Virus record (IMG/VR): IMGVR_UViG_3300017992_000019
Span: 1-64,000 of that record
Direction: 5' to 3' (one strand)
Source of the DNA: a virus
DNA: 64,000 nucleotides
The notes under the pieces were generated by a model. That model was not told the origin of the DNA and did not search any database. It was given only the letters and a program-made list of their open reading frames with translations. Shown here piece by piece: positions 21,259 through 36,704 of the stretch. Position 1 is the stretch's first letter. Every line of letters starts with the position of its first letter. A program made the position numbers and the translations under genes.

Positions 21259-21312
21259 GGGTATCGGATCAACCGAGCCCCGATGTGTGCTCCGCGCATG
21301 TCGGGGCTTTTT
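21259..21312 (+). terminator. Intrinsic terminator with an overlapping alternative hairpin (attenuator-like)
   Basis: AGCCCCGA...TCGGGGCT+TTTT (21276-21312); competing GGG-TA-TCGG-ATCAA-CCGA-G-CCC (21259-21280). Confidence 0.7.
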
Positions 21313-21328: not shown

Positions 21329-22273
21329 ATGTCCGAAAAAGCAAAGCGACGGTTGCTTGAGGTTGAAGTTGACGAGGTTTCGCTCGTAGATCGAGCGGCC
21401 AATTTGAGACGGTTCCTAGTAATCAAACGACTGGAGGAAAAAGAAATGGGAGCTTTCAAAAAAGACGAGATCAAGAAAGGCGAGGAGATGACCGAGGAGG
21501 AAAAGAAGAAAGCCGAGGAGGCCAAGAAAGCCGAGGAGGCCAAGAAAGCCGAAGCGGTCAAGAAATCCGAGGAGGAGATCAAGGAGATCCTCAAGGCCAT
21601 GAACCCGGCCGCGGTTGCCGGGATGCTCCGCGGTCTCAAGGGCGCACCCAAGGAGGCGGTCGACGCTCTGATCCAGTGGGCCGAAGGTCAGGCGAAAAAG
21701 GCCGAGACCAAGAAGTCGGCCGACGGTGACGGCGACGATCCTCCCGCGGATCCTCCCGCGGATCCCCCGGCCGATCCCGAGCCGGCCGATCCCCCCGCGG
21801 ATCCCCCGGCCGATCCCGAGCCGGCCGAAGTCAAGAAAGCGGCCGTCGAGATCCACGACGACGGCACCGTGATCGTCAACGGCGCTCCGGTGGTCAAGGG
21901 CAAGACGTTCACCCCCTCGCGCAACAGCGCGATCAAGGAGGTGATCGGCAAGCTGATCAAGCTGGCCGGCGACGTCGGTGATTCCGAGACCCTCAAAGCG
22001 ATCGCCGACATGGTCAAGGAGCTCCCCGACGACGCGAATCCGGGACAAGGAGTCAAGGCCGTCGGCACGGCCGGAGGCGTCGCGCTCAAGAAAGCCGAGG
22101 AGGAGATCGAGAAACTTCGCAAGGAGCTCGACGAGGCCAAAGCGGAACGCGCCGACGTGACCAAACGACTCGACGAGATCGAAAAGACCCGCGAGCCGAG
22201 CAAGTCGGTCGACGGCGACGGCGGCACCGACAAAGAAACCATGAAAAAGGAGTTTTGGGACGGCGTGATCTAG
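21329..22273 (+). CDS. Capsid scaffolding protein with an N-terminal protease-like strand and C-terminal FWDGVI
   Basis: Directly before the capsid gene; E/K-rich coiled coils; EEAKKA and DPPA repeats; DEVSLVDRAAN; internal GGAGG plus ATG at 21446. Confidence 0.8.
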   Translation: MSEKAKRRLLEVEVDEVSLVDRAANLRRFLVIKRLEEKEMGAFKKDEIKKGEEMTEEEKKKAEEAKKAEEAKKAEAVKKSEEEIKEILKAMNPAAVAGMLRGLKGAPKEAVDALIQWAEGQAKKAETKKSADGDGDDPPADPPADPPADPEPADPPADPPADPEPAEVKKAAVEIHDDGTVIVNGAPVVKGKTFTPSRNSAIKEVIGKLIKLAGDVGDSETLKAIADMVKELPDDANPGQGVKAVGTAGGVALKKAEEEIEKLRKELDEAKAERADVTKRLDEIEKTREPSKSVDGDGGTDKETMKKEFWDGVI

Positions 22274-22353
22274 CACGTCGACCGGAGCTCTCTCAACCGA
22301 TCTAAGAAGTCAAAGGATCACTTTCGATCGAACCTTTCAAGGAGGAATCAGTC

Positions 22354-23562
22354 ATGCCCGAAAGAGTCTCAAACGAGGAGTTGGTGCAGAAAGCCCTGAT
22401 CGAGACCGGTGCGCTCTCGGCGGCCGGCAAACTCAACCCGGCGCAAGCCGACAAATTCATCGACTATGTTGTCGATGAGAGCGTGTTGAAAAACAACGCG
22501 CGCGTCGAGCGGTTCCGCAACGAGACGCTCGAGATCGACAAGATCGGGATCGGCCGGCGCGTCGCGTTGCCGAAAGCCGAAGCGGCCGACCCCGGTCTCC
22601 GGCGCGGGATCGAGACGAGCAAGATCGTGCTCGAGCCCCGGACCGTCGCGGTGCCTTTCGAGGTCTCCGACGAGTTCCTCGAAATCAATCTCGAGGGTCA
22701 GGCACTAGCCGACAAGATTGTGCAGCTTATGGCGCGCCAGTTTTCAAACGACCTCGAGGAGTTGTATTTGTTCGCCGACTCCCTCGGGCCGTCGATCGTC
22801 GAGAGCGACTATCGCTCGGGCGGATCGGCAACTCAGCACGTCAAAGACGAGTATCTCGGTCTCCTGCCAAGTCCGGGCGGGTGGTTGCGTCGTGCCGACT
22901 CCGGTCACGTCGTGGATCACGAGGGCGCAAACATCGGTCTGTCGGTGTTCGGCAAGATGCTCCGCAACATGCCGCAGAAATTCAGGCGCAACAAGGCCGC
23001 GCTCCGGTTTTTCATTGCGCCGGATCTTTCTCAGTTGTACGTCGAGAAACTGAGCACCCGGGCAACCGGTCTCGGCGACGCCTCGGCGGCGGGCGCCGAT
23101 CACCGGCCGTATGGTGTGCAGTTGGTCGAGGTGCCGTTGTTCTCGTTCCTGCCCAAGGTCGTCGAGCACGTGACCTTGACCAACGAGGATCCGATCGCGC
23201 TCCGGTACAAGCCGGTTCAGAATGAGGTCGTGACTCCGTCCGATCTCGCCGGCACCCCGACGACTCCGTATGTCGAGGGCACCGACTACAACATGGATTA
23301 TGCCAACGGGACGATCGCTCGCGACGCCGGAGGCTCGCTCCCGACGCCGGTCACCGTCAAGATCACTTACGAGGCGAATCCTCAACTGTTGCTCACGCAT
23401 CAGTCGAATTTCGTTCTCGGCATCGGGCGGGATATCAAGATCGAAAAGGATCGCGATATCTACCGCGGTGTCTGGTCTTACATGGTCACCGCAAAGGTTG
23501 CCGCGCAGTTCGAGGAAACCGATGCGTTGGTCAAGGGCGTCAACATCGGCCAGGGCGTGTAA
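22354..23562 (+). CDS. Major capsid protein (HK97 fold, XkdG/P2-like) with an extra beta-rich insertion
   Basis: GKLNPAQADKFI, IDKIGIGRR, MLRNMPQKFR, NFVLGIGRDIKIE; strong RBS. Confidence 0.9.
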   Translation: MPERVSNEELVQKALIETGALSAAGKLNPAQADKFIDYVVDESVLKNNARVERFRNETLEIDKIGIGRRVALPKAEAADPGLRRGIETSKIVLEPRTVAVPFEVSDEFLEINLEGQALADKIVQLMARQFSNDLEELYLFADSLGPSIVESDYRSGGSATQHVKDEYLGLLPSPGGWLRRADSGHVVDHEGANIGLSVFGKMLRNMPQKFRRNKAALRFFIAPDLSQLYVEKLSTRATGLGDASAAGADHRPYGVQLVEVPLFSFLPKVVEHVTLTNEDPIALRYKPVQNEVVTPSDLAGTPTTPYVEGTDYNMDYANGTIARDAGGSLPTPVTVKITYEANPQLLLTHQSNFVLGIGRDIKIEKDRDIYRGVWSYMVTAKVAAQFEETDALVKGVNIGQGV

Positions 23563-23680
23563 GCAAGCGCCAGTGATCGAGCGACGCTCACAGGAAACCC
23601 CCCGGCGAGTGCACGAATGAGGTGTGCTCGCCGTGGGTGTTCCGATTTCGGGCTATCGCTTGGGCAAGGAGGATCTCAAG

Positions 23681-24052
23681 ATGGCACGATCAAGAGTCAC
23701 ACTCAAAGAGGGTCGATCTTTTTCGACCGCGCGCCGGACTTTTTTGCTAGACCGGCCGGTGATCATCGGGAACGAAACCGAGATCGCCGAGCTCAAGGGG
23801 AACAGTCGTTTCGAGGTCGAGGATCTCGACTCCCCGGGTCCGGCAAAGCAGAAAGCGACCAAGCCTCCCCCGGCAAAACCGGAGACCAAGCCGGAGACCA
23901 AGCCGGAGGAGAAATCGGCGCCGACCTCGGGACCGATCACGACCTCGTCTCTCGCGAAGTCGACCGAGTCGACCTCGAAACCGGCGAAGTCGAAACCCGC
24001 GAAGCGGAGCAAGGCGAAGTCGGGCAAGAAAAAGTCAACCAAGAAAGGATAG
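23681..24052 (+). CDS. Small protein with a K/P/S-rich basic tail
   Basis: AGGAGG RBS; KPET/KPAKS repeats. Confidence 0.75.
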   Translation: MARSRVTLKEGRSFSTARRTFLLDRPVIIGNETEIAELKGNSRFEVEDLDSPGPAKQKATKPPPAKPETKPETKPEEKSAPTSGPITTSSLAKSTESTSKPAKSKPAKRSKAKSGKKKSTKKG

Positions 24053-24058
24053 GTCGAC

Positions 24059-24598
24059 ATGGCGCGAGTGAGAATCCAGGTTGCGGCCGGTCGACCTTTC
24101 CAGGTCGACGATTTCGGGCCCGAGGTGTCGCGCTCTCGAGAGGGCGCGATCTACTTCCGGCCGGGCGTGCTCACGGTCACGACCGAGGAGCTCGAGCACG
24201 TCCGGGCGAAGTATCCCGAGCACGGGGCCCGGATTCGGGTGCTCGGGTGGGTCAAGGAGGCCGGTGTCGCGGGTGACACCCCCCGGGAGACACCGTCTCC
24301 CGGCCGGCCGGCTGAAAAGCCCCAGGAGGCGCCCGAGGCGCCGGCCGCGGGCGAGGAGCCGGGCAAGACCGAGGAGCCGTCGGAGACGGCCGGAGACGCC
24401 TCGACAGGGGCAAAACAGGCGCCCGAGGCGCCAGAAACAGCCGAAAAGCCGAGCTCGAGCACCGAGGAGGCACCACCGGTCGGCGAGGCCGGCACCGGCG
24501 AGTCGAAACCCGACTCGGCCGAGGAGGCCGACAAGGGCAAGGGCAAGGAGAGCGGCAAGGGAAAGCGCAAGCGTAGGAGCAAGAAAAAGTCGAGTTGA
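24059..24598 (+). CDS. Protein with an E/P/A-rich linker and basic C-terminus
   Basis: In operon; ends KRKRRSKKKSS. Confidence 0.75.
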   Translation: MARVRIQVAAGRPFQVDDFGPEVSRSREGAIYFRPGVLTVTTEELEHVRAKYPEHGARIRVLGWVKEAGVAGDTPRETPSPGRPAEKPQEAPEAPAAGEEPGKTEEPSETAGDASTGAKQAPEAPETAEKPSSSTEEAPPVGEAGTGESKPDSAEEADKGKGKESGKGKRKRRSKKKSS

Positions 24599-24997
24599 TT
24601 GCGACCTCGTTTGGCGGTGCTCAAGAGGAGTCGCGCATTGTTACGGGTACACACATGCGACGGTTTGACCTCAACATTTGACCTCGAGGACAAGGAGCAA
24701 GCGGAGCGGTGGTTGCAATTGTTGAAAGATCCAAAGTTCCAAGAGTCGATCACGGGATTGACGATCTCGCACCGCGGGGTTTTGTTTTCTCTGTCGAGGC
24801 CGCAAGGATTCCAGCGTCAATTTTATTTCGCCGAAAGGGTCGAACCCGTCCCTCAGAAAAAGATAAAGGGGGGCGAGCGCCTCCTGTGCTATGCCGACGA
24901 CGTCCGAGTCGGTCTCATGGTGCACGAAGCGCAACGAGCGGTTCGAGTAACACTCAACAAAACCGGACGACAAAGGTTCAACCCTTTCTTACGATAG
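24599..24997 (+). CDS. Hypothetical protein
   Basis: Fills the operon gap; TTG start uncertain. Confidence 0.6.
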   Translation: MRPRLAVLKRSRALLRVHTCDGLTSTFDLEDKEQAERWLQLLKDPKFQESITGLTISHRGVLFSLSRPQGFQRQFYFAERVEPVPQKKIKGGERLLCYADDVRVGLMVHEAQRAVRVTLNKTGRQRFNPFLR

Positions 24998-25007
24998 GAG
25001 GTTTCAA

Positions 25008-26534
25008 ATGACAGTTTCCTTGCAACGTGTGGATCAGATCCACAAACCGGACAACTTCGACGATTCCCTCAACGCCGCGTCGGTCGCGGGCATCGAAGGG
25101 TCGGCGGTCGACTATGCCGATTTCGTGACCGGTATTCTCTCGCAGATCAAGAGGATCATTCACGGGAGCGCGGCCGGCAATTGGCACGATGACATTGAGA
25201 GTGCGGCCGACTCAATGGTCGACCTCTACAACCGGGCGACACTCGAGGGCAAGAACATCCTTGTAAATCGCCTCAACCTCAACGACGTCTCGGTGCCGGC
25301 GACGCAAAACTACGTCGCCTTGACTGGCACCGGCAAGCCCGACAAGAACATTGCGATCTCGGTTTCCAATCAAGGAGCCGTGACCGCGCAACTCGCCGGC
25401 GCGATCGGGTCGCACAGTCTCGACGAGATTTCCGGGTCGAATGCGCTCCGGCCAAAGAGTCTCGTCGCGGTTTTCGACGGATCGACAGGAGATCCGATCC
25501 TGTCCTCCGGCCGTCGGGTATGGGCTTTGTTGCAGGTCGGATCGGCCGCGACCGACGGAAATGCGTTCGGCGACACCGGCAACGATCAGGGTCAACTCTC
25601 ATTCGTGAGAGCAAACTCGACCTACGCCGATCTTGAGGCGTGTCCGGTCGCGGATATCGAAAGCACCGATATCGTGTATGCGTTCACGTGGCGCGACGAT
25701 CTCAACGACATGCCCGAGGAGTTTTTCCGGGGCGATATCGAAAGCGCGGATCCTCAGTCCGGCGTCGTGGTATCCCTCGACTCGGCATACGACGGCGGGC
25801 AATACATGGAGGTCGACGGCAACGACGTCGACATTCGTCTAGCCGACACGAAATCGTGGATCTTCCGCAACGGCGCGGCGGGACAGATCATCTTTCAGTT
25901 GACCCGCAACGACACGACCGGCGACACCCTCACGCTCACCCTCGACGGTCTCGACGTCAACGTGCCGTCGGGGCAAACGAGTTTCTCGCAGGGGATCGTG
26001 GTCGACGACGACGATCAGGATATCAACATCGGCGTGACTCAGGGAGAGATCGACTCGACCGCGCTCACCGTCGAAGCAACCGCGGGCGACTTGCTCGCGA
26101 AAGCCTCGGCCGACGTGAAATTCCAGACCGTGCGCGAAACGACCGCGTTGCCTCTCGACGACGCGACGACCGGCGCGATCTCCGGCGTGGGATCCGGGAG
26201 TCATGCGTCGATCGCGGCCGCGATCAAGGATGCTTACGAAAACGGCGGCGTCGATCTGACTCTCAAGATCACCGTGCTCGCGAGCAACTACGGGCAAGGC
26301 GTCAACATCCCGGGAGCGATTCAGGATATCACGGCGAATCCGATCGACATGACCTCCCCGTCGACGGTCGAGCAACTTGTGTTCCTCAACGGGCGCCTCT
26401 TGCACGGCGGCAGCGTCACAACCAAAAACGACGTTTATGTCGGCGACACTCCGGGGTCGGGCGACATAAAGGTCGATTTCCCGAAGGGAGTAAAATCGGG
26501 CGACGTGATCATTTCGGCGGTATTGGCGCAGTAA
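25008..26534 (+). CDS. Putative virion structural (head fibre or decoration) protein
   Basis: G/S/T/D-rich beta composition; C-terminal VFLNG...SGDVI module. Confidence 0.7.
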   Translation: MTVSLQRVDQIHKPDNFDDSLNAASVAGIEGSAVDYADFVTGILSQIKRIIHGSAAGNWHDDIESAADSMVDLYNRATLEGKNILVNRLNLNDVSVPATQNYVALTGTGKPDKNIAISVSNQGAVTAQLAGAIGSHSLDEISGSNALRPKSLVAVFDGSTGDPILSSGRRVWALLQVGSAATDGNAFGDTGNDQGQLSFVRANSTYADLEACPVADIESTDIVYAFTWRDDLNDMPEEFFRGDIESADPQSGVVVSLDSAYDGGQYMEVDGNDVDIRLADTKSWIFRNGAAGQIIFQLTRNDTTGDTLTLTLDGLDVNVPSGQTSFSQGIVVDDDDQDINIGVTQGEIDSTALTVEATAGDLLAKASADVKFQTVRETTALPLDDATTGAISGVGSGSHASIAAAIKDAYENGGVDLTLKITVLASNYGQGVNIPGAIQDITANPIDMTSPSTVEQLVFLNGRLLHGGSVTTKNDVYVGDTPGSGDIKVDFPKGVKSGDVIISAVLAQ

Positions 26535-26593
26535 ACCGATAACCTTTTGACGCGATTGGCTCTCTTGAGAGAGCTCAAGCGAGAGGTGGAATC

Positions 26594-27136
26594 ATGGTTG
26601 ACAAACTCGAGGACATACACGACGACAGCGTGCGAGGCAAACTCACCGGCTTTCAAGAGAACGCCGACGAGCTCGGTGCGGAGATCCTCCGGTTGCGGAA
26701 AGCGGCCGAGGACAAGGCCGCACTTGTAACCGCGGCAAGCGCGATCGAGAAACGTCTCAAGGCAATATGGGACAAGGTCTCGGCGGATCTCAAGGCCGAG
26801 TTATTCGATCACGACGAGGCCAAGATTCGCGCGGACCAAGCGAGGATCATGGTCGAGACCGTGCGAGAGATCGTGCAGATCAATGCCGAGGAGGCCGCGT
26901 CAATGAAAGGCAAGGTTTCCGGCCTTACGCTCGCGGTCGACCGGATCCAGGCGAAGTTCAATCAGGAGGCCGCGAAGTATGAGCGGCACGCGGCAATGGA
27001 GGCCGAGGAGGATGCACTCGCGGCCGAGCGTGGTCGGTCTCGAGGTATTCCAAAACGGCAAAAGGCGAAGTCGAAACCACCGACGAAACGAAAGCCGGCG
27101 AAGCGCAAGCCGGCGAAAAGGAGCAAGCGGCGTTGA
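26594..27136 (+). CDS. Coiled-coil protein with a KPAKR basic tail
   Basis: GAGGTGG RBS; heptad pattern. Confidence 0.7.
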   Translation: MVDKLEDIHDDSVRGKLTGFQENADELGAEILRLRKAAEDKAALVTAASAIEKRLKAIWDKVSADLKAELFDHDEAKIRADQARIMVETVREIVQINAEEAASMKGKVSGLTLAVDRIQAKFNQEAAKYERHAAMEAEEDALAAERGRSRGIPKRQKAKSKPPTKRKPAKRKPAKRSKRR

Positions 27137-27594
27137 GCCCGACACCCGACAGATTTCCTGGCACCCGGGAGGAAACCGAGATCAAGATCCTCCCCGAGAG
27201 CTCGGATCCCTCCGAGGAGGGAGTGATCCGGCTTGTGTCGGGAAACTTTCGTATGCGAGACGGGCTCGGAGTTTTCAACCCGCGTTCCGGGAGCGGTGGT
27301 CTCACCGAGGGCGATCACAAGGTGCTCGATTTTCTCGGGCACGCGATCGTCGAGGATGCTTACGAGGAGATCACTTACACCGGGAGCAAGGTCTCGAATG
27401 TCACGATCTGGACCGACTCGGGCAAGACGATCAAGATCCGCGAGTATCAATACACTTACTCGGGAAGCAAGATCAGCACCGAGACGATCATTCAATACAA
27501 CGGATCGGGAGTCGAGGTTGAGCGGTTGGTTTTGACGTACACTTTCACCGGTAACAAGGTGTCGAGTATCGACTATGAATACTCGACACCATAG
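27133..27594 (+). CDS. Putative structural protein with Y-T-G-S-K beta repeats
   Basis: Three YTGSKV/YSGSKI/FTGNKV units. Confidence 0.65.
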   Translation: MSPTPDRFPGTREETEIKILPESSDPSEEGVIRLVSGNFRMRDGLGVFNPRSGSGGLTEGDHKVLDFLGHAIVEDAYEEITYTGSKVSNVTIWTDSGKTIKIREYQYTYSGSKISTETIIQYNGSGVEVERLVLTYTFTGNKVSSIDYEYSTP

Positions 27595-27605
27595 GAGCTC
27601 GGATC

Positions 27606-28208
27606 ATGCCGGTTGTGATCCCAGGACAGACATTCCCGGTCGCGCTATTCGACGACGTCAACGAGATTGCGCTCGCGGTTGCCGATGGGGTTGCACTTCC
27701 GGCGAACACTCGCGGATTGATCATTGCGTCGGTCGACGGCGCGGGCGACGTGCATTTTGTTCAATCGGACAGCGAGGGCAACTTGCGGGTCGCGAGTCAA
27801 CCCCCGCAACCTCCGGCCGGCACGACCGAGTTTGTGCTTGCCGTCCCGGATGGGAGTCTCGAGATTTCGGCGCCTCCCGATTATCACGAAACGGAGTCGT
27901 CGGTGATCGGGAGCTCCGTCGATTTGTATTTGCAGTCATTCACCGCGGGCGCGGGAGGAGATCCGAGCGAGCGAGGGAGTCGGATCGATATCTTATGGCG
28001 CGAGGGAGCGGGCCCGACCGATCACGTGGTCGAGCGGGTCTATATCTCGGGACAGTCGGTCACGATCACCTTGCCGGACGTGCACAAGGCGCGCGACGGC
28101 CAGGCGTTGACCGGCGACGGCACGACAACGAAACTCGTGATCCGCAGATATCGTTTGTCGAATGCAGATCAAGAGGTTGACGCAGTCGTGAGAGGTTATA
28201 CCGAGTAG
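27606..28208 (+). CDS. Putative structural protein
   Basis: AGGAG RBS; operon context. Confidence 0.7.
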   Translation: MPVVIPGQTFPVALFDDVNEIALAVADGVALPANTRGLIIASVDGAGDVHFVQSDSEGNLRVASQPPQPPAGTTEFVLAVPDGSLEISAPPDYHETESSVIGSSVDLYLQSFTAGAGGDPSERGSRIDILWREGAGPTDHVVERVYISGQSVTITLPDVHKARDGQALTGDGTTTKLVIRRYRLSNADQEVDAVVRGYTE

Positions 28209-28217
28209 GAGAATTGA

Positions 28218-28901
28218 ATGCCGGTTCAGGTACAAGGCACAGTTGATCTTGACGCGCACGTGGCACCCGGCCGCGTGAAAATGCACCAAGACCTCTCGAT
28301 CATGATCAACCCGTTTTCGTATGAGGTCGACGGCAAACGGAATCACTACGCCGGCGTTTTGGGACAGTCGGTCACCGACGACGCGACAAACTATGTCTAC
28401 CTCAACACGGCCGGCACCTTGCAAGTCAACACGACCGGGTTCCCGGACGAATCGCATATCCGACTCGCTCGGGTGATCACCCTCGACGGATTGATCCGGG
28501 ACATTATCGACGAGCGCGTGCTCCTCACCGGATCTCTGGATCTCGAGATCACGTATGCGACGAGCGGCGGGCAGAGCTCGACAACCGAGACGACCTATCA
28601 ACAGAAACTCCGACTCACGACGCCGGATCTCCCATTGGGCGACTACTTGATCGAGTGGTATGCCGAGGTCAAGCACAGCAACGCGACGCAAAGTGAGTAT
28701 GTGCAAGCGAGGGTTGAGGTCGACGATACCAGTGAGATCGGGATCTGCGAATGGTGTTTTCCGGCATGGGACGATTTCGGAGGCATGTCGTTTGCCGAGA
28801 GCGTTTCCGGCGTGCACACTTTCGATCTCGACTTTCGCATACAAGGCGGCGGGACGGCATATATTCGGCGAGCTCGGATGCTCTTTAGGAGGCTCAAGTG
28901 A
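28218..28901 (+). CDS. Putative structural protein
   Basis: AGGAG RBS; beta-rich. Confidence 0.7.
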   Translation: MPVQVQGTVDLDAHVAPGRVKMHQDLSIMINPFSYEVDGKRNHYAGVLGQSVTDDATNYVYLNTAGTLQVNTTGFPDESHIRLARVITLDGLIRDIIDERVLLTGSLDLEITYATSGGQSSTTETTYQQKLRLTTPDLPLGDYLIEWYAEVKHSNATQSEYVQARVEVDDTSEIGICEWCFPAWDDFGGMSFAESVSGVHTFDLDFRIQGGGTAYIRRARMLFRRLK

Positions 28902-29512: not shown

Positions 29513-29733
29513 GCAAGCGTTCCACATGGCCGAAGTGGGTCACGATCGGGATTCTGATCACGGTCGCGGTGATCCTGATCGGTTGGGATATATACGTCGC
29601 AGTCAACGACGAGGAGGGCGACACGATCTCCGAGATCCTGTTGTGGGTCGGCGAGCACCCGATCCTCCCTTTCGCGTTTGGTGTGCTCATGGGTCACTTG
29701 TTTTGGCCGCAGTATAAGAGGCGCGAGGCATGA
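29509..29733 (+). CDS. Small two-TM membrane protein
   Basis: Two hydrophobic helices; GHLFW. Confidence 0.7.
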   Translation: MSKRSTWPKWVTIGILITVAVILIGWDIYVAVNDEEGDTISEILLWVGEHPILPFAFGVLMGHLFWPQYKRREA

Positions 29734-30032
29734 CCGATTATCACGAAAGCAAGGTCGTCGCTTTGATCGGCGTTCCGAATGGGGCCACAAAGCAATTCAC
29801 GGCACCCTCGGCATTCGTTGCGGGATCCTTTCGCCTTGTGCTCAACGGTCAAGTCTATGAGCCGACCGACGACAAGTTCGGTTGGACCGAGATCAGCGAC
29901 ACGGTTGTCGAGCTCACGACGGCGCCGCGCACCGGCGACGTCTTGCAGGCTTTTTATCAAGAGCTTTCGGCCGTGCCGGGAGTCGGCAACGTGAAAGGAT
30001 CTCCCTTTCACCCGACCGACTCTTACCCATAG
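29730..30032 (+). CDS. Small Ig-like virion domain protein
   Basis: GVPNG...LVLNGQ...APRTGDVL pattern. Confidence 0.65.
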   Translation: MTDYHESKVVALIGVPNGATKQFTAPSAFVAGSFRLVLNGQVYEPTDDKFGWTEISDTVVELTTAPRTGDVLQAFYQELSAVPGVGNVKGSPFHPTDSYP

Positions 30033-30041
30033 GAGAGGACA

Positions 30042-30323
30042 ATGCCGTTTCCCAACGAGCACGCCGCGAGGCAAAAGGATCCGGGACGGTACAAGTCGTT
30101 TCGTCGGATGCGGCCGAAAGGTTTCCCGGCCGGGATCGATGCGATCATTGGGATCCTTGGTCGCGGGTTGAGCGAGATCCAGTCGTTGCGATTCGACAAG
30201 GAGAAATGGTCACCGGAGGCCGCGCGCAAGTGGCTCAAGGAGCACGGGTTCAAGACCGAGCTCGAGCCCGCGGGCAAGCCAAAGGAGAAAGTCGAAAAGA
30301 CGTTTTGGGACGGGGTGATCTGA
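30042..30323 (+). CDS. Head-associated small-domain protein (PNEHAAR...QSLRFDK) with C-terminal FWDGVI
   Basis: AGGAGAGG RBS; ends VEKTFWDGVI. Confidence 0.8.
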   Translation: MPFPNEHAARQKDPGRYKSFRRMRPKGFPAGIDAIIGILGRGLSEIQSLRFDKEKWSPEAARKWLKEHGFKTELEPAGKPKEKVEKTFWDGVI

Positions 30324-30324
30324 C

Positions 30325-30510
30325 ATGAGACGGATCGCGATTCTGTTGACGGTGCTCGCGGCGTTCGCGTTCGGGTGTGCGACGTCAAGCAAGGGAGCGA
30401 AAAAGGAGACCGAGGTCGAGGAGCCGAAGGAAAAGAAAGCCGACGACGAGCTCCCGGCGTGGTCAAAATTTCCCGAGGAGAAAACCGACGACGAGGAATC
30501 CGAGGAGTAG
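30325..30510 (+). CDS. Small lipoprotein
   Basis: MRR, hydrophobic core, AFGC lipobox. Confidence 0.65.
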   Translation: MRRIAILLTVLAAFAFGCATSSKGAKKETEVEEPKEKKADDELPAWSKFPEEKTDDEESEE

Positions 30511-30513
30511 GTT

Positions 30514-31611
30514 ATGCCGGCGCTTGCAAGAGGACAGGAAAACACACCGTCGATCATCAATTGGTTTACGACGGTCAACGGTGTGCTCACCGATATGTTC
30601 GCGGTCGAGTTTCAGATTTGGGATATCACCGGAGGGTTGCCGGGCACCGTGATCTTTCCGACACCGGGCGACGCGAATGATTGGGAGGATGTGACAAGCA
30701 ACGCGGGTCACTACTCGGTCGGGCACTATTACGCATACGACTCGGGCAACGCGCAAGGCTGGACTCCCGGACTCGCCGAGCCGATCGGAACGCACCGGAT
30801 CAAGTGGCGTTGGAAAGCGACGGCCGCGGCGCCGTACCAATCCGACGCCGAGGATTTCGAGGTGCTTGTGCAGTCGGCCGGGAGCTCGACCGACACGTAC
30901 ATTTCGGTTCAAGACGTGCGCGACGAGGGTCTCGACGTTGCGACGTATCCCGACGACAAGGTGCTCGCCTATATCAATATCTGGCAAGCATTTCTCGAGC
31001 GCGCGTGCCGGCAATGGTTCAACGCGCGGTCGTTGATCCTCGAGGTCGACGGCGACGAGACCGACACGATCTTTCTCGGCGTGCCGATCATTTCGATCGA
31101 CTACGTCAAGATCAACAACTCGGGCGAGGAGCTCGACGAGACGTTGTATCGGGTCTACAACCGCAACGGAACGCTCGACGACAGGCACAACCCGAAAATC
31201 TGCCTTGTCGGGCCCGACGCCTATCAAGATATTTTCGTTGCGCCGGTCACATGGGGCCGGTTGCGGTTTCAGAAAGGGCGACAGAATCAGGAGATCAAGG
31301 GGATCTTTGGGTACGTCGAAAGCGACGGGTCAACCCCGCACCTGATCAAGCGCGCGCTCCTCAAGCTAGTGATCGAGAAACTCACCGAGCCGATCTATGA
31401 TGCCGCGGCCGGGAGCTCGGTCGCGCCGATCCTCGGGTCGATCCTCGAGGAGGAAACCGACGATCACCGAATCAAGTATTCCGGGGCCCCGGTTACGGAA
31501 CGCCGGCCGGGTCTCTCGGGGATCACCGAGGATCCCGAGATCCTCGACATAATCAAATTGTATCGGGCGCCGATCGGAGTCGCGGCGCCGTCGCATTGGA
31601 GTATCACGTGA
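30514..31611 (+). CDS. Head-tail connector/adaptor with an N-terminal extra domain
   Basis: YISVQDVR...FLERACRQWF...PHLIKRA..KL pattern. Confidence 0.65.
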   Translation: MPALARGQENTPSIINWFTTVNGVLTDMFAVEFQIWDITGGLPGTVIFPTPGDANDWEDVTSNAGHYSVGHYYAYDSGNAQGWTPGLAEPIGTHRIKWRWKATAAAPYQSDAEDFEVLVQSAGSSTDTYISVQDVRDEGLDVATYPDDKVLAYINIWQAFLERACRQWFNARSLILEVDGDETDTIFLGVPIISIDYVKINNSGEELDETLYRVYNRNGTLDDRHNPKICLVGPDAYQDIFVAPVTWGRLRFQKGRQNQEIKGIFGYVESDGSTPHLIKRALLKLVIEKLTEPIYDAAAGSSVAPILGSILEEETDDHRIKYSGAPVTERRPGLSGITEDPEILDIIKLYRAPIGVAAPSHWSIT

Positions 31612-32015
31612 CCTTGCCTCGTCTCATACACCCGATCGACGTGACGATCGAAAAGATCGTCAAGGCGTCGACGTATTACGACGAGGATGCCCGCGAGCCG
31701 ATCCAGCAGGCCGCGCGGGCGGTGCCGGTGGTTGTCAAGGGTCAACCGAAATGGACTCGGCAGTTCGGGCTTGACATGGAAAAGGGAGGAGCTCGAGAGA
31801 CCGCGGCCGGGTACGTGCTATTCCGCAAGGTCGATCTCGACGCGGTGAGCGTTACGCTCGAGGACAACGATCGGATCACGAAAATGGGGCACGTCGAGTG
31901 CGACGTGTATGTGATCCGGCTGGAATGGACCGGGCACTATCCCGATCAGGACGGGCCGAGCATGGTCAAGGCGCATTTCACAGATCGGCGACCGTCAAAG
32001 GGAGTCGAGGACTAA
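31608..32015 (+). CDS. Head closure/stopper-like protein
   Basis: Size and position; GTGA overlap. Confidence 0.55.
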   Translation: MTLPRLIHPIDVTIEKIVKASTYYDEDAREPIQQAARAVPVVVKGQPKWTRQFGLDMEKGGARETAAGYVLFRKVDLDAVSVTLEDNDRITKMGHVECDVYVIRLEWTGHYPDQDGPSMVKAHFTDRRPSKGVED

Positions 32016-32635
32016 TGCCGCGCGGTGCTATCAGATTGACCGGCAATTGGGCCGGGTTCAAGAAAGCTCTCGAGGGCCGGACTTTCACCACGGCCGCGCG
32101 GAAAAACATGCGCCGGGCAATGGGACTCGTCGGCACACTCGTTGCTCGGGAGGTCCGAGAGCAAATCAAGCGCGGCCGGTACAAGGCAAACGCCGCTCTC
32201 ACCGTTGCGCTCAAGGGAAGCAACGAGCCGCTCAAGGGCAAGAGGACCGGCGAGCTCTGGCAGGCGATCACTCACAAGGTGATCGACGATTTCACCGTTT
32301 TCGTCGGAGTGCTCCGCACGTCCGGCGATTACAACGTCGCGGCCGCGGTGCATCAAGGGGTTTCGATTGGAGTCACTCCGCGAATGCGCGCTATGTTTTG
32401 GGCGCTCTGGAAAATGACTCTAGGCGTTCCGGGAGCGGAGCTCACCTCGAAACGGGCCGAGCAACTTTGGTCGTGGAATAAGGTTTGGTATCCGATCTCG
32501 AGAGCAACGCAAGCGATCGTGATTCCTCCTCGGCCGTTTATGGCTCGAGCGTTTCGCAGTCGAGGCACGCAACGGATCGTGCAAAAGGTTTTGACTGAGG
32601 CGCTCGACGCGACGTTTCAGGAGTTGGTAAAGTGA
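32015..32635 (+). CDS. Virion morphogenesis protein (HK97 gp10 / Mu gpG-like)
   Basis: NAALT..LKG..EPL, IPPRPFM. Confidence 0.7.
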   Translation: MPRGAIRLTGNWAGFKKALEGRTFTTAARKNMRRAMGLVGTLVAREVREQIKRGRYKANAALTVALKGSNEPLKGKRTGELWQAITHKVIDDFTVFVGVLRTSGDYNVAAAVHQGVSIGVTPRMRAMFWALWKMTLGVPGAELTSKRAEQLWSWNKVWYPISRATQAIVIPPRPFMARAFRSRGTQRIVQKVLTEALDATFQELVK

Positions 32636-33882
32636 GGCTCAAGAAACTAATCAAGGAGCTCTGTTTCGAGGAGAGCGTGCGAAGTAAGATCACGCTCGGA
32701 GCCGACACCCGTTTGCATCCCGAGTCGAGTTGGTTGCAACTCCTCGCCGATATCAACGGTGCGTATCCGACGACCGACGATCTCACCGTCAAGACATGGG
32801 TCACGAATCCGCAAAGTGTTCGTCAATGGCTCGGTTTCGAGGCCGACGTCGCGCACACCGAGATCGACGGTTCGGTCGTGACCTCGGTCAAGTTTCGTCT
32901 CGGTGACGGCACCTCCGAATTCTATTGGGACGGCGGCGCGTGGTCCGCGGCCGGCGCCTCGGATTGGAACACCGAGGAGGAGATCGCCGACAACATTTCG
33001 GACTTTCCCGCGACCGAGCGCAAGATCCAGGTCGTGATCAACCTCAAGTCTACCAGCACGGCCGCGACTCCATTAGTGACCCGGATCAAGATCCTGTATG
33101 CCTCCGATATCGAATTTCAAGAGGATCTGATCTATCGGTCGCTTGTGCGGTTGCTCCGAAACGAGATCCGGGTCAAGGGTCGGCACGTGATCACGCTTTC
33201 GAGCGCGACCGACACGATCGATCTCGCCGACACATACCCGATCGAGACGCCGTACAACATCCGATCGATCGACGGGGTATTCAACCACACCGACGATTCG
33301 GAACACTGGACCGACTTGTTTTCGAGTTATAACCCGACGACCAAGGTGATCACGCTTTCGTCGACGGTCGCGGCCGGCAAGGTCGTCTGGATCGATTTCC
33401 TTTGGGAGCCCGAGGTCGCGGTCACGACTTCGCAAGACTACTCGGAGGTCGAGAAAGTTCCGTCGCTCATAATCGACGACATTGGTTTGATCGACGCGGT
33501 CGAGCGGGCCCGGCCGGAGTATGTGATCAACAAGTCGGCCGGGACCGGCGTCAAGGTGCCGGGCCCGTTGCAAGGGGATCTCGATCTCGTCTTGCACTTG
33601 ATCACCGACAAGGGCGTCGATCAAATGCGTTTCGCCGACGAGGTCAAGCGGTTTTTCTCGAATCACCCGCAACTCGTATCAACCGGCCTCGACGAGGAAT
33701 ACGACTTATGGTTGTTCGACGAGTACGACATGACCACGGCGGCAAACCGCGGAGACATACACACCGGGCGCATGAGAGCGCAGATCCGAAACGTCTTGTT
33801 TTTTGTCCGGGAGTCGGAGGATATTTACCCGGTCGAGAAATTTATTTTGTCGGGTGATTTTGACACGATCATTCAGGCTTGA
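32632..33882 (+). CDS. Tail completion/terminator-like protein
   Basis: Immediately upstream of the sheath gene. Confidence 0.5.
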   Translation: MRLKKLIKELCFEESVRSKITLGADTRLHPESSWLQLLADINGAYPTTDDLTVKTWVTNPQSVRQWLGFEADVAHTEIDGSVVTSVKFRLGDGTSEFYWDGGAWSAAGASDWNTEEEIADNISDFPATERKIQVVINLKSTSTAATPLVTRIKILYASDIEFQEDLIYRSLVRLLRNEIRVKGRHVITLSSATDTIDLADTYPIETPYNIRSIDGVFNHTDDSEHWTDLFSSYNPTTKVITLSSTVAAGKVVWIDFLWEPEVAVTTSQDYSEVEKVPSLIIDDIGLIDAVERARPEYVINKSAGTGVKVPGPLQGDLDLVLHLITDKGVDQMRFADEVKRFFSNHPQLVSTGLDEEYDLWLFDEYDMTTAANRGDIHTGRMRAQIRNVLFFVRESEDIYPVEKFILSGDFDTIIQA

Positions 33883-33902
33883 ATTTCAAAGGAGGAAACA
33901 AA

Positions 33903-36194
33903 ATGTGTGCTCAGAGAAGAATCGGACCCGTTCGCGGCGCAGGCGTTGCGATCGTGGAAAAGGAAGGCGACAAACCGATCGAGGCGGGAGCTCTTGGGTG
34001 GGCGGCGTATGCCGGGATTCTGGAAAAGGGCGACGTCGGCAAGCTGATCCAAGCGAGCTCGAAAAAGGCGTTCGAGAAAAAGTGCGGCGGGTATATCGAC
34101 GACTCGTTGCTCCCGGATGCCTGTTTCGACTACTACGATCTCGCTCGCGGCGCCGGCGGTCTGTTGCTTGTGAGGGTCACCGACGGAAACGAGTTGCCGT
34201 CGGAGGTGACCTTGTATGCCCGACGCACAACTCAGTCGCCTATGGGAACGCTCAAGGCGAAAAACGGGGGTCGGTGGGGCGGCAAGGCTAACAAGTACAC
34301 CGACGACATGCCCAACGGCGGCGCGACCGACCTCACGAACACGACCCTCGACACCGGGCAGGCCATGAAAACCGACGAGTGGAAAGGCGGATACGTCGAG
34401 CTCGCCGAGGTGCCGAATGTGCAGTATCCGATCATCGGCAACGACGACGCCGGCGTGATCACCGTCGCCGCGGATCAGACCATGCTCGACGACTGGACGG
34501 CCGGAGGCGCGACCGACGATCGGTTTTATCTTGTGCTCGAAAACGAGGGCAAGATGCTCTCCTATGAGATCCGCGACGGCGAGGAGAATCCCGACACCGA
34601 GTTCGGGCTTTTCATTTATGTCGACGGCGCGCTCGCGAACAATTGGGCCAACCTGTCGACCGATCCCGCGTCGCCGAGGTATTGGGTCAACGTGATCAAC
34701 AACGACGGCAACAACGCCGAGATCGAGGTCGTCGATCTCTGGACCGGAGCACACGTCGCGGACGTCCGGCCGGCGAATCACTACGGCGAGATCGACACCG
34801 TGACCGCGACGGTCTTGACCGCGGTGATCCATGAGTTCAACCCGGCCGCGACCGGAGACGGCAACGGCACGTGTGCGCTCGGGACCACGACCGACGACAT
34901 GGTCGCGCAGACCTTGACGATCACTTTCACCGACCCGACCACATACGACGTCGTCTCCGACAAGTTCGGCACGGTCGCGAGCGGTGAGACCGTCGGCACT
35001 CAAACGGATCCAAACAACAAGTGGACACCTCCGTTCACCCTCACGGCCGGAGCGACCGCATGGGAGGCCGCGGACGTCGCGACCTTGACCTACAAGCCGT
35101 TCGTGCCGGACTCGTTGATCGACGGGTACGTGTACCCGGACAAGGTCAATGCGAAGCGTGAGAAGTATCGGATCGTCGACAACGATCACGACACGATCAC
35201 CGCGGCACCGGGATCCGACCTCACCGTGAGCGGCGCGCCGGCCGACGAGTTCCTCGTCGTCGCTCCGCTGGAAATGGAGGGAGGCCGCGACGGGATCGCC
35301 GACCTCACCGACGCGGACTATATCGCCGCGTGGGACACCGCGACCTCGTTGTTCAATCAGATCCACGGCAAGAATCTCGGGCTTGTGAAAATGGCAACGC
35401 CGGGGATCACCTCGACCGCGGTGCAGAAAGCCGGGATCGCATACGCCGACGCGAAAAACCATCAGTATCGGATCGAGGTGCCGGACACGACCACGACCGA
35501 GGAGTCGGCGGATCTGTACGTCAACGACACGATCGGGCGTTCCGATTTCGCCGTCGTGAATTTCCCGTCGTATGCGTATGTCACCGATCCCGACGACGAC
35601 GGATCGGGCAAGCGCAAGCTCGTCTCATGCACCGGCATGATCCACGGCCGGGAGGCGCGCACGGCGGTCGACTACACCGGGTATCACAAGGCCGGCGCCG
35701 GCGTCGATCAGATCCTCCCGTCGATCCTCGAGCTCCCGACGGGAGACACGATCCTCGACGAGGAGTATCTCAACCCGCTCGGGATCGGTCTGATCAAAAA
35801 GGTCAAGGGCAATTTCGTCCTGTGGGGCGATCGCACCTTGCACGTCGATCCCGCGTGGAAGTGGAAGCATCAACGCGAGATGCTCTCGTATTACGAGAAC
35901 GTGCTCCGCGAGTCGTTCGACTGGATCATTTTCATGATCAACGATCCGGTCACCGAGAAAATGGCGCTCACTTCCATGAAAACCTTTTTCCTGCCGGAGT
36001 GGCGCAAGCGTGCGCTCCGCGGCGACACTTTCGAGGAGGCGGCGCGGATCAAGATCGACAGCGAGATCAACACCGACGTCGTGCGCGCGGCCGGCGAAAT
36101 GTACGCGCAAGTCGCGTTGCAACTGGCCGACACCGTCGAGCGGTTCATCATCGAAATCGGCAAGCAGGGAATTTTCGAGTCGGTTGCCGCGTAG
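33903..36194 (+). CDS. Contractile tail sheath protein
   Basis: AKNGGRWG, GGRDG, LNPLGI, VLWGDRTL. Confidence 0.92.
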   Translation: MCAQRRIGPVRGAGVAIVEKEGDKPIEAGALGWAAYAGILEKGDVGKLIQASSKKAFEKKCGGYIDDSLLPDACFDYYDLARGAGGLLLVRVTDGNELPSEVTLYARRTTQSPMGTLKAKNGGRWGGKANKYTDDMPNGGATDLTNTTLDTGQAMKTDEWKGGYVELAEVPNVQYPIIGNDDAGVITVAADQTMLDDWTAGGATDDRFYLVLENEGKMLSYEIRDGEENPDTEFGLFIYVDGALANNWANLSTDPASPRYWVNVINNDGNNAEIEVVDLWTGAHVADVRPANHYGEIDTVTATVLTAVIHEFNPAATGDGNGTCALGTTTDDMVAQTLTITFTDPTTYDVVSDKFGTVASGETVGTQTDPNNKWTPPFTLTAGATAWEAADVATLTYKPFVPDSLIDGYVYPDKVNAKREKYRIVDNDHDTITAAPGSDLTVSGAPADEFLVVAPLEMEGGRDGIADLTDADYIAAWDTATSLFNQIHGKNLGLVKMATPGITSTAVQKAGIAYADAKNHQYRIEVPDTTTTEESADLYVNDTIGRSDFAVVNFPSYAYVTDPDDDGSGKRKLVSCTGMIHGREARTAVDYTGYHKAGAGVDQILPSILELPTGDTILDEEYLNPLGIGLIKKVKGNFVLWGDRTLHVDPAWKWKHQREMLSYYENVLRESFDWIIFMINDPVTEKMALTSMKTFFLPEWRKRALRGDTFEEAARIKIDSEINTDVVRAAGEMYAQVALQLADTVERFIIEIGKQGIFESVAA

Positions 36195-36227
36195 GTGTTC
36201 CGGTAGGGGGGGATCGGGAGGCCGATC

Positions 36228-36458
36228 ATGGTAGACGTGAAAAAGCAACGCGGACAAGGCGGGCCCCCGCAACGACAGGGCGGCAAGGCAACTTGCGAAT
36301 GTCCGAAGTGTGGGTTTGTCATGGAACACACCGAGCGCGGAACACCTTGCATCAAATTCAAGTGCCCGAAGTGCGGCGCCACGATGGGACCGCCCGGAGG
36401 CGAGCACGGATTCAAAAAAGAGGAAACCAAAAAAGGTTTTTGGGACGGCGTGATCTAG
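36228..36458 (+). CDS. Double Zn-ribbon protein with C-terminal FWDGVI
   Basis: CECPKCG...H..RGTPC...CPKCG; GGGAGG RBS; ends TKKGFWDGVI. Confidence 0.8.
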   Translation: MVDVKKQRGQGGPPQRQGGKATCECPKCGFVMEHTERGTPCIKFKCPKCGATMGPPGGEHGFKKEETKKGFWDGVI

Positions 36459-36494
36459 CGTCGCACCGAAACGAAAAAACAAGGAGGATCAGTC

Positions 36495-36704
36495 ATGGCG
36501 GTAACACTGAAAAAGTATGTGGGAGACGGCGGCGCAGGTCTTGACGACTCAATGGGATTCGACAACCTGTACGACGTGCTCAAGGCACTCGCCGACGCGC
36601 AAAACGATCTGGTGACGCAGTTCAATCAGTTCCGGGCCGACTACAACGCGAGCACGGTGCCGACGACCTCGACCGATTTGGCGTCGGCCGTGACCGTCGA
36701 GTAG
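36495..36704 (+). CDS. Small putative virion protein
   Basis: RBS context nearly identical to that of the capsid gene. Confidence 0.75.
   Translation: MAVTLKKYVGDGGAGLDDSMGFDNLYDVLKALADAQNDLVTQFNQFRADYNASTVPTTSTDLASAVTVE

What the first reader, a model, noticed from the sequence alone, without database searches (positions are those of the whole stretch)
22229..36497. Identical C-terminal peptide K-x-FWDGVI on the scaffold and two unrelated small proteins: candidate capsid-loading tag
Seen: the scaffold ends ETMKKEFWDGVI (22253-22273), ORF 30042-30323 ends EKVEKTFWDGVI, and ORF 36228-36458 ends EETKKGFWDGVI. The DNA differs at silent positions (GGC/GGG, TAG/TGA), which points to selection on the peptide. 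Each tag follows a K-containing motif resembling the putative protease site. Established: scaffold C-termini bind the inner face of HK97-fold coats (P22, herpesviruses), and encapsulins load cargo through short terminal peptides. Inference: the phage reuses its scaffold's coat-binding peptide as a modular, cleavable address label to package accessory proteins. With the split protease and the polyproteins this would form a complete load, cut and deliver system, and the tag could be useful for engineering.
Basis: partly seen in the sequence, partly recalled or inferred. Interest (0 to 1): 0.9.

Follow-up and report, generated by a model that had tools for sequence, protein, structure and literature searches.

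The report
Scaffold-tail peptide reused as capsid address tag
In this 95-kb uncultured tailed phage the six residues that end the head-scaffold protein also end two small, unrelated, basic proteins, and related phages do the same with other small proteins, so the peptide is most likely a portable "load me into the young capsid" label, though no experiment shows loading.

Summary
FWDGVI-stop occurs exactly three times in the six-frame translation of the whole 94.9-kb genome. It ends the scaffold, a 93-aa protein and a 76-aa zinc-ribbon protein.

- **Conserved tail.** A [FLIMV]-W-x-G-[VI]-[LI] tail ends the protein upstream of the capsid gene in about 25 IMG/VR relatives. It also ends at least six unrelated small protein families in those phages.
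- **Tails follow the scaffold.** In the complete relative G005 the scaffold, the zinc-ribbon homologue and a third protein all end in LPL. In L092 the scaffold and the cargo end LFN and LFD.
- **Link to the head interior.** The 93-aa protein is a BRX-like domain that is usually the N-terminal module of head proteases. It carries the tail when it stands alone in this capsid lineage.
- **Possible cut site.** [VIL]-x-K is enriched just upstream of the tail and conserved at the capsid protein's N-terminus.

The best reading (about 0.6) is a modular C-terminal procapsid-targeting peptide copied from the scaffold's coat-binding end. Coat binding, cleavage and delivery into the host are untested.

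This is a new variant of a known kind. The scan has noted similar scaffold-copying tags on other DNA.

The parts
21329..22273 (+). Head scaffold protein (314 aa from the ATG; a GTG at 21287 is also possible). It is acidic (pI 5.0) and lies between the protease-ending polyprotein and the capsid gene.
   Evidence: PHROG matches to the N- and C-terminal parts of protease-scaffold fusions; homologues upstream of the capsid gene in 25 relatives.
22253..22270 (+). Tag copy 1: FWDGVI, followed by TAG.
22354..23562 (+). Major capsid protein, HK97 fold; the proposed receptor of the tag.
   Evidence: phrog_1623; annotated major capsid protein in Streptomyces, Vibrio and Rhodococcus phages; AF2 pLDDT 80; Foldseek hits to SPO1, T5, P22 and GTA capsids at probability 1.00.
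22444..22467 (+). QADKFIDY in the capsid protein's N-arm (residues 31-38). It is invariant in 26 relatives down to 27% identity and is a candidate docking site for the tail (inference).
22384..22395 (+). V-Q-K-A at capsid residues 11-14. The [VIL]-x-K-[AGS] pattern holds in 21 of the 23 relatives whose aligned sequence reaches it, with TQK-A and LEK-V in the other two. It is a candidate propeptide cut site.
30042..30323 (+). Tagged protein 1 (93 aa, pI 9.9). It has a BRX-like 'PNEHAAR' domain (residues 1-75), a disordered linker (76-87, containing V-E-K at 30291-30299) and the tag.
   Evidence: AF2 pLDDT 81.5 overall, about 50 over the linker and tag; BRX domain 6l0v, probability 0.99; BFVD 'Prohead protease', E 3.6e-8.
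30303..30320 (+). Tag copy 2: FWDGVI, followed by TGA.
36228..36458 (+). Tagged protein 2 (76 aa, pI 9.2). It has a zinc ribbon (Cys 23, 25, 28, 41, 46, 49; 36294-36377), a short linker and the tag. It lies between the sheath and tube genes.
   Evidence: (homologue in G005 at 47% identity).
36438..36455 (+). Tag copy 3: FWDGVI, followed by TAG.
20658..21014 (+). XkdF-type head protease domain (PF14550) at the end of the 1,101-aa polyprotein. It is the presumed enzyme that would trim the tags (inference).

Best explanation
The C-terminal peptide, with consensus [VI]-x-K, 1-4 residues, [FL]-W-x-G-[VI]-[LI]-COOH (here FWDGVI), is the part of the scaffold that docks on the inside of the assembling HK97-fold capsid shell. 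The likely docking site is the invariant QADKFIDY N-arm. The phage has put the same peptide, on a flexible linker, at the end of two small basic proteins. These would then co-assemble into the procapsid alongside the scaffold. The XkdF-type head protease may then cut at the [VIL]-x-K site and free the cargo from the shell. The acidic scaffold leaves, while the basic cargo could stay with the DNA. Shown by computation: the identity and conservation of the tail, its modular spread, its partial co-variation with the scaffold, its link to this capsid lineage, the fold of the coat and the fold of cargo 1. Inferred: binding to the coat, cleavage, retention in the virion and ejection into the host.
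For: (1) There are three exact copies, all at protein ends, in the whole genome. (2) About 25 scaffolds of capsid-gene relatives end in the [FLIMV]W motif, and even 24-27%-identity relatives and Streptomyces phage Faust keep [ST][VIT]W near the end. On the coding strand the motif is terminal 33 times and internal 9 times, against 3 and 15 on the other strand. (3) The same tail ends unrelated small proteins in relatives: BRX-like, zinc-ribbon, ChaB-like, a 'PHLRNALAR' domain, a 'VQVQK' domain and a roughly 265-aa L093 protein. (4) Family alignments show domain plus variable linker plus tail, and distant members lack the tail. (5) Tails follow the cognate scaffold. G005 has three LPL tails with different codons, including the zinc-ribbon homologue. 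L092 has LFN and LFD. The permutation test gives p=2.5e-4. (6) The BRX-like domain is otherwise the N-terminal module of S78, DUF2213 and Mu-type head proteases, that is, a head-interior protein. Of 66 parsed loci, 45 are fused and untagged, and 14 of 20 stand-alone copies are tagged. (7) All 10 tagged stand-alone loci with readable context carry this capsid lineage, against 0 of 6 untagged ones. (8) The tail is predicted disordered on a linker. The coat has the HK97 fold and an invariant N-arm. (9) [VIL]-x-K lies within 9 residues upstream in 28 of 48 tails, against 9.3 +/- 2.5 when shuffled, and it is conserved at capsid residues 11-13. (10) There is precedent: the C-terminal RIIK helix-and-hook of the 80alpha scaffold and SaPI1 CpmB binds the coat N-arm (PMC5644958).
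Against: There is no virion or procapsid proteomics, no structure and no complex model, so the partner of the tail is unknown. Co-variation rests on three genomes; without G000, G005 and L092 the test gives p=0.22. In L016, L019 and L021 the scaffold's extra end residues are not mirrored by the cargo. Six of the eleven assembled genomes show no second tagged protein; these six (G001, G002, G004, G006, G007, G010) are 38-79% complete by CheckV. Proteins of 8-10 kDa could escape through procapsid pores once cut. In this window only one of the three tags has a strict [VIL]-x-K. The zinc-ribbon gene sits among tail genes.
Confidence: 0.6

Rival explanations
1. The tail is still a head-assembly address, but its receptor is another head component, such as the portal, the XkdF protease or the scaffold lattice, rather than the coat. 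The tagged proteins would then sit at the portal or serve as protease clients.
For: Nothing here identifies the partner. Scaffolds of other phages also contact portals (PMC12005531 and PMC5529062, listed). The [VIL]-x-K site next to the tail would suit protease docking.
Against: In Faust and L092 the protease and scaffold are a single chain that still ends in the tail. That fits poorly with a tail whose job is to recruit the protease. The invariant coat N-arm across the same clade is a natural partner. G005 has tags but no BRX-like protein, so that domain is not the receptor.
Confidence: 0.15
2. The small tagged proteins are not cargo. They are assembly modulators that compete with or assist the scaffold at its coat site, as SaPI1 CpmB does. 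They might set capsid size, nucleate assembly or time scaffold release, and then leave.
For: The only structurally proven case of a small protein sharing a scaffold's C-terminal motif is a competitor of this kind (PMC5644958). The proteins are small and could exit through the pores.
Against: They are encoded by the phage itself, in its structural operon and in synteny, not by a satellite. At least six unrelated domains carry the tail, which suits variable cargo better than one conserved assembly role. The BRX-like domain normally rides on proteases.
Confidence: 0.12
3. The tail is read by a host factor, for example as a degron, a chaperone signal or a membrane signal. It looks similar within a genome because all the phage's proteins face the same host.
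For: Within-genome similarity alone cannot tell a host partner from a phage partner. The tail is hydrophobic and C-terminal, as some degrons are.
Against: The tail tracks the capsid and scaffold lineage across loci of very different base composition. It is found on the scaffold, whose C-terminus is the coat-binding end in studied phages.
Confidence: 0.05
4. The repeat is a DNA or RNA element, such as a regulatory or recombination site, that happens to be translated.
For: In this genome the three 18-base copies differ at one base and share minor codons.
Against: Relatives keep the peptide with different codons. The G005 copies read TTG CCC CTC, CTC CCA CTG and CTG CCG CTC. The peptide is always in frame at a protein's end, and homologues show amino-acid substitutions within a consensus. 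The DNA identity here fits recent copying or gene conversion of the tag.
Confidence: 0.02

Closest known systems
80alpha scaffold and SaPI1 CpmB C-terminal 'RIIK' helix-and-hook (Dearborn et al. 2017, PMC5644958)
   Same: A short C-terminal motif of the scaffold is shared with a small, otherwise different protein. In that system it binds the N-arm of an HK97-fold coat, and the C-terminal domains can be swapped between the two proteins.
   Different: CpmB belongs to a satellite and redirects capsid size. Here the tagged proteins are the phage's own, of several unrelated folds. The motif ([FL]WxG[VI][LI]) has a different sequence, and binding has not been shown.
Phage T4 capsid targeting sequence of IPI-III and Alt (Mullaney and Black 1996, as described in PMC7411985 and PMC9024508); also the P1 DarB N-terminal signal (PMC9024508)
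   Same: A short portable peptide loads small basic proteins into the prohead and is removed by the head protease, and the cargo is ejected with the DNA. The cargo here is also small and basic (pI 9.2-9.9).
   Different: The T4 and P1 signals are N-terminal and bind the core. This one is C-terminal and copies the scaffold's own end. The protease here is XkdF-type, not gp21, and the candidate site is [VIL]-x-K, not L/I-x-E.
Encapsulin cargo-loading peptides (reviewed in PMC8346489 and PMC7355545)
   Same: Short C-terminal peptides on flexible linkers address unrelated proteins to the inside of an HK97-fold shell.
   Different: This shell belongs to a true tailed phage with terminase, portal, protease and tail. 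The consensus sequence differs, and the tail is shared with a scaffold.
Nested protease and scaffold genes that share a C-terminus (lambda C/Nu3, Mu I/Z, herpesvirus UL26/UL26.5) and the HK97 protease C-terminal targeting tail (Duda et al. 2013). These are from my own knowledge; the Duda paper is cited in PMC7411985 but could not be opened.
   Same: Two head-interior proteins use one coat-binding C-terminus to enter the procapsid.
   Different: In those cases the sharing comes from in-frame overlapping genes, or involves the protease only. Here three separate genes 8 and 14 kb apart carry independent copies.

Membership tests
T4-type capsid targeting sequence (CTS) | N-terminal propeptide of about 10-20 residues | tested here: not met
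   The shared peptide lies at the extreme C-terminus of all three proteins.
T4-type capsid targeting sequence (CTS) | Removed by the head protease at its consensus site | tested here: inconclusive
   [VIL]-x-K is enriched upstream (28 of 48 against 9.3 expected) and conserved at the capsid N-terminus. No cleavage data exist, and only 1 of the 3 window tags fits strictly.
T4-type capsid targeting sequence (CTS) | Cargo is found in proheads and virions and is ejected | not testable with these tools
   The phage is uncultured and no proteomics exist.
Encapsulin cargo-loading peptide | Short C-terminal peptide on a flexible linker, attached to unrelated cargo | tested here: met
Encapsulin cargo-loading peptide | HK97-fold shell | tested here: met
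Encapsulin cargo-loading peptide | Shell is a DNA-free compartment without portal, terminase or tail | tested here: not met
   Terminase, portal, sheath, tube and tape-measure genes lie in the same operon.
Scaffold C-terminal coat-binding motif shared with a second protein (80alpha SP / CpmB type) | The same C-terminal motif on the scaffold and on a small, otherwise unrelated protein | tested here: met
Scaffold C-terminal coat-binding motif shared with a second protein (80alpha SP / CpmB type) | The motif binds the coat N-arm | not testable with these tools
There is only the indirect invariance of QADKFIDY.
Scaffold C-terminal coat-binding motif shared with a second protein (80alpha SP / CpmB type) | The second protein belongs to a satellite and redirects capsid size | tested here: not met
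   The genes lie in the phage's own syntenic structural operon.
Nested protease/scaffold genes sharing a C-terminus | Sharing arises from in-frame overlapping genes | tested here: not met
   The three genes are separate, at 22.2, 30.3 and 36.4 kb.
BRX domain (PF08381) for ORF 30042 | Sequence match above Pfam's cut-off, and the BRX fold | tested here: inconclusive
   The window protein scores 15.8 bits against a cut-off of 24.5. The relative L103 reaches 26.8 bits. The fold match to 6l0v has probability 0.99 and TM 0.68 on the target.

The most novel reading that the evidence does not exclude
A whole lineage of uncultured XkdF-protease myophages uses an encapsulin-like, roughly 10-residue C-terminal peptide as a general, protease-removable procapsid address. 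The peptide is identical in kind to the scaffold's coat-binding end. It is kept matched to the scaffold by short-patch copying, and it is attached to a changing set of small basic proteins that travel into the host with the DNA. If so, it would be a natural link between phage scaffolds and encapsulin cargo peptides, and a minimal tag for loading foreign proteins into phage heads.
Probability: 0.3. Interest if true: 0.8.

Novelty: new variant of a known kind. Interest (0 to 1): 0.6.

Why it matters
How tailed phages other than T4 and P1 load accessory proteins into their heads is largely unknown. A 6-10 residue C-terminal label that copies the scaffold's own docking peptide would be a simple, general answer. 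It would be directly testable by co-expressing the coat, the scaffold and a tagged reporter. It would give the first natural phage counterpart of encapsulin cargo peptides. It would flag small proteins of unknown function as probable head-interior or injected proteins. It would also offer a very short tag for packaging proteins into phage-derived particles. Finally, it assigns a location, the head interior, to the widespread BRX-like 'PNEHAAR' domain.

Tried and rejected
- **The look-up of encoding contigs:** Cognate scaffolds of database homologues were reached through IMG/VR loci instead.
- **Complex modelling:** This step was left out.
- **Solved relatives:** sequence search of the PDB found none for the coat or the scaffold.
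- **Annotation of other cargo:** Pfam and PHROGs gave nothing for the other cargo domains of relatives.
- **Cultured phages:** none with a stand-alone tagged BRX-like protein was found. In Synechococcus and Roseobacter phages the domain is fused within a gene annotated as the major capsid (or major head) protein. Vibrio phage vB_VcaS_HC has the same capsid lineage, but its scaffold lacks the W tail.
- **Literature:** searches found no report of this motif. One search was swamped by BREX 'Brx' proteins. Duda et al. 2013 could not be opened.
- **Idea rejected:** that the BRX-like domain is the receptor of the tail. G005 has tags but no such domain.
It was redone from coordinates.
Full report
**1. 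Observation**

The window is the first 64 kb of a 94,891-base single-contig virus record. It holds a myophage structural operon on the + strand. In order, this contains:
- a terminase-like and a portal-like gene;
- a 1,101-aa polyprotein made of a 2H phosphoesterase, a D12 methyltransferase and an XkdF-type protease (PF14550) at its end;
- a scaffold, a major capsid protein, an adaptor, a sheath, a tube and a tape-measure protein.

A six-frame scan of the window and of the whole genome finds FWDGVI three times. The looser patterns also match only three times. Each copy is followed at once by a stop. When the last seven residues of all 1,636 ORFs are ranked against the scaffold's tail, the three score 35-42 and the next best scores 10.

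Both small ORFs have good ribosome-binding sites.

One detail needs correcting. The three 18-base copies differ at a single silent position. All three use the less common codons TTT and GTG. From the codon usage of ten long genes, I estimate the chance that two further independent copies would match the first at the Phe, Asp, Val and Ile codons at about 0.004. So within this genome the DNA points to recent copying or gene conversion of the tag. It does not show independent selection at silent sites.

**2. The tail is a conserved end of the scaffold in this capsid lineage**

The capsid protein retrieved 49 related IMG/VR loci. In about 25 of them the long ORF ending just upstream of the capsid gene ends in [FLIMV]-W-x-[GDN]-[VIL]-[LIV], preceded by lysines. 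Examples are KKSLWNGVL, NENFWNGVL, QKSIWTGVL and KGLWSGILD.

More distant relatives (24-27% capsid identity) still end in S-[VI]-W plus a few residues. The protease-scaffold fusion of Streptomyces phage Faust (29% capsid identity) ends KSKGSTWGGRFLGLSDLQN.

On the coding strand of the close relatives the motif is terminal 33 times and internal 9 times. On the opposite strand the counts are 3 and 15.

**3. The same tail ends unrelated small proteins in relatives**

A motif scan of the loci, and of ten relatives whose whole contigs I fetched, found second and third tagged proteins:
- a ChaB-like protein in L010/G008;
- a protein with a 'PHLRNALAR' domain in L015, L018/G003, L016/G009 and L019;
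- a 'VQVQK...' domain protein in L016, L019, L021 and G005;
- a zinc-ribbon protein in G005;
- a roughly 265-aa protein in L093.

G005 is a complete 91.6-kb genome with terminal repeats and is collinear with this phage. It has three tagged proteins, as this phage does.

Six of the eleven assembled genomes showed no second tagged protein. These six (G001, G002, G004, G006, G007, G010) are 38-79% complete by CheckV.

**4. Family view of the two window proteins**

ORF 30042 has 44 database homologues. The alignment shows a conserved domain of about 75 residues (MPFPNEHAARQ...), a linker of variable length that includes a 30-residue insertion, and then the tail (VKKSFWNGVL, TKKSLWNGVI, KNFWGNAV and others). 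Several more distant members stop after the domain or have other ends.

The zinc-ribbon protein has nine tagged homologues and two that end straight after the ribbon.

The tail thus varies by amino-acid substitution around a consensus and can be present or absent on the same domain. That is what a module under peptide-level selection looks like.

**5. Co-variation with the cognate scaffold**

In G005 the scaffold ends NFWKDLPL, the zinc-ribbon homologue (47% identity to ORF 36228) ends GFWGGLPL and a third protein ends GLWDNLPL. Their Leu-Pro-Leu codons all differ. In L092 the protease-scaffold fusion ends SLWSGVLFN and the BRX-like protein ends SFWAGVLFD.

I ran a permutation test on 16 genomes, comparing the similarity of cargo tail to scaffold tail against shuffled pairings. 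The results were:

| Genomes included | p |
|---|---|
| All 16 | 2.5e-4 |
| Without this genome (G000) | 0.003 |
| Without G000, G005 and L092 | 0.22 |

(an earlier version is.)

So the signal comes from the three genomes whose scaffold tail departs from the consensus. In L016, L019 and L021 the scaffold's extra end residues are not copied by the cargo. Related genomes also inflate such tests. The co-variation is real but modest.

**6. What the cargo is**

The AF2 model of ORF 30042 has a mean pLDDT of 81.5. It shows four strands and a helix over residues 1-75. The linker and tail have a pLDDT of about 50.

Its best solved match is the plant BRX domain bound to a C-terminal peptide (6l0v, probability 0.99). 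This agrees with weak Pfam BRX hits. Its best match among viral models is a 'Prohead protease' (E 3.6e-8).

In IMG/VR the domain is very common, with at least 589 matches. It is mostly the N-terminal module of head proteases of three families: Peptidase_S78 (with or without a fused capsid domain), DUF2213 and Mu-like_Pro.

The 66 parsed loci break down as follows:

| Form of the BRX-like domain | Loci |
|---|---|
| Fused to a larger head protein, untagged | 45 |
| Stand-alone, tagged | 14 |
| Stand-alone, untagged | 6 |
| Fused, tagged | 1 |

Every tagged stand-alone locus with readable context (10 of 10) carries this capsid lineage with an XkdF domain. None of the six untagged ones does.

In other words, a domain that normally rides into the head on the protease carries the scaffold's tail when it stands alone in this lineage. 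This is the strongest single argument that the tail is a head address.

Both window cargo proteins are small and basic (10.7 kDa with pI 9.9; 8.2 kDa with pI 9.2). The scaffold is acidic, with pI 5.0. The cargo resembles the T4 internal proteins in size and charge.

**7. The proposed receptor and the cut site**

The capsid protein's AF2 model (pLDDT 80) matches HK97-fold capsids of SPO1, T5, P22, GTA and others at probability 1.00. Its most conserved stretch is QADKFIDY in the N-arm, invariant in 26 sequences down to 27% identity.

In 80alpha the scaffold's C-terminal helix-and-hook binds the coat N-arm, and SaPI1 CpmB uses the same motif (PMC5644958). By analogy, the tail here would dock on the N-arm. 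This is inference; no complex could be modelled.

I tested this in two ways. First, [VIL]-x-K lies within nine residues upstream of the tail in 28 of 48 scaffold and cargo tails, at spacings of 1, 3 or 4 residues. Shuffled segments give 9.3 +/- 2.5. Second, [VIL]-x-K-[AGS] holds at residues 11-14 of the capsid protein in 21 of the 23 relatives whose aligned sequence reaches that position (TQK-A and LEK-V in the other two), as a propeptide site would.

The variable spacing suggests an element separate from the hydrophobic tail, which is consistent with a cut site. In this window only ORF 30042 (V-E-K-T) fits strictly. The scaffold has M-K-K-E and the zinc ribbon has T-K-K-G. Cleavage remains a hypothesis.

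**8. Rivals**

- **A DNA element** is excluded by the relatives' codons and substitutions.
- **A host factor** fits poorly with the tail's link to the capsid lineage.
- **A different head partner** (portal or protease) cannot be excluded. However, protease-scaffold fusions that keep the tail argue against simple protease docking.
- **A CpmB-like modulating role** is possible for individual proteins. It does not explain six unrelated tagged families.
- **The BRX-like domain as receptor** is ruled out, because G005 has tags without it.

**9. Comparison and novelty**

Portable capsid-targeting peptides are known:
- the T4 CTS and the P1 DarB signal, both N-terminal (PMC9024508 and PMC7411985);
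- the C-terminal propeptide proposed to target the SPN3US protease (PMC7411985);
- the HK97 protease tail (from my own knowledge);
- encapsulin cargo peptides;
- the engineered P22 scaffold fusions (PMC9962691, listed).

Sharing of a scaffold's C-terminal coat-binding motif with a second protein is known from 80alpha and SaPI1.

What I did not find in the literature searches is a tailed phage whose own accessory proteins carry a short copy of the scaffold's C-terminal peptide. I therefore class this as a new variant of a known kind.

The scan's own notes describe analogous scaffold-copying tags in other, unrelated virus genomes (e1-5996401, e1-5633670, e1-5632900). I did not test those. They suggest the principle may be general.

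**10. Verdict**

| Question | Verdict |
|---|---|
| Observation | Confirmed |
| Confidence that the tail addresses these proteins to the procapsid through the scaffold's docking site | About 0.6 |
| Confidence that the tag is cleaved at [VIL]-x-K | About 0.35 |
| Confidence that the cargo is delivered into the host | About 0.25 |
| Interest | 0.6 |

Noticed in passing
window 20658-21014 and 21329-21440; L167 18155-19920; L092 931-2133: The XkdF protease domain ends one gene, and the next gene (the scaffold) begins with the E-V-S-L-V-D-R-A-A-N segment that matches positions 2-35 of the protease-scaffold family phrog_3017. Cultured Vibrio phage vB_VcaS_HC has the same two-gene layout: an XkdF gene, then a 384-aa gene starting ...ISVVDRGAN. 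In L092 and in Faust the two parts form one ORF. So the 'split' is a recurrent arrangement and not a local accident.
   Followed up: partly
L164 10001-12274; L140 4403-5530; L103 3888-5555; L126 8732-10144: The BRX-like 'PNEHAAR' domain is a widespread N-terminal module of three different head-protease families (S78, DUF2213, Mu-like_Pro). It is often followed by an Hva1_TUDOR domain. Its role is unknown. The plant BRX domain binds a C-terminal peptide.
   Followed up: partly
window 22253-22273, 30303-30323, 36438-36458: The three tag copies share the minor codons TTT and GTG and differ at one base. This suggests recent short-patch copying or gene conversion that keeps the cargo tags matched to the scaffold.
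   Followed up: partly
window 30325-30510: A 61-aa ORF starts 1 nt after the stop of ORF 30042. It has a signal peptide and a lipobox-like FGC, followed by a highly charged tail. It sits just before the head-tail adaptor gene.
   Followed up: no
L093 19037-19882: A third kind of tagged protein (about 265 aa, ending SKSFWNGVI) lies downstream of the capsid gene in a relative that also has a tagged BRX-like protein. The protein at the matching position in the window (25008-26534) has no tag.
   Followed up: no
protein P0049: A tagged zinc-ribbon homologue is deposited under a Candidatus Thorarchaeota MAG (SMTZ-45). It most likely comes from a viral contig binned with that genome. The host of this phage lineage is unknown.
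   Followed up: no
window 36228-36458 against G005 22964-23254: The zinc-ribbon gene lies between sheath and tube here, but after the tape-measure gene in the collinear relative G005. The tagged genes therefore move within the structural operon like small mobile inserts.
   Followed up: partly
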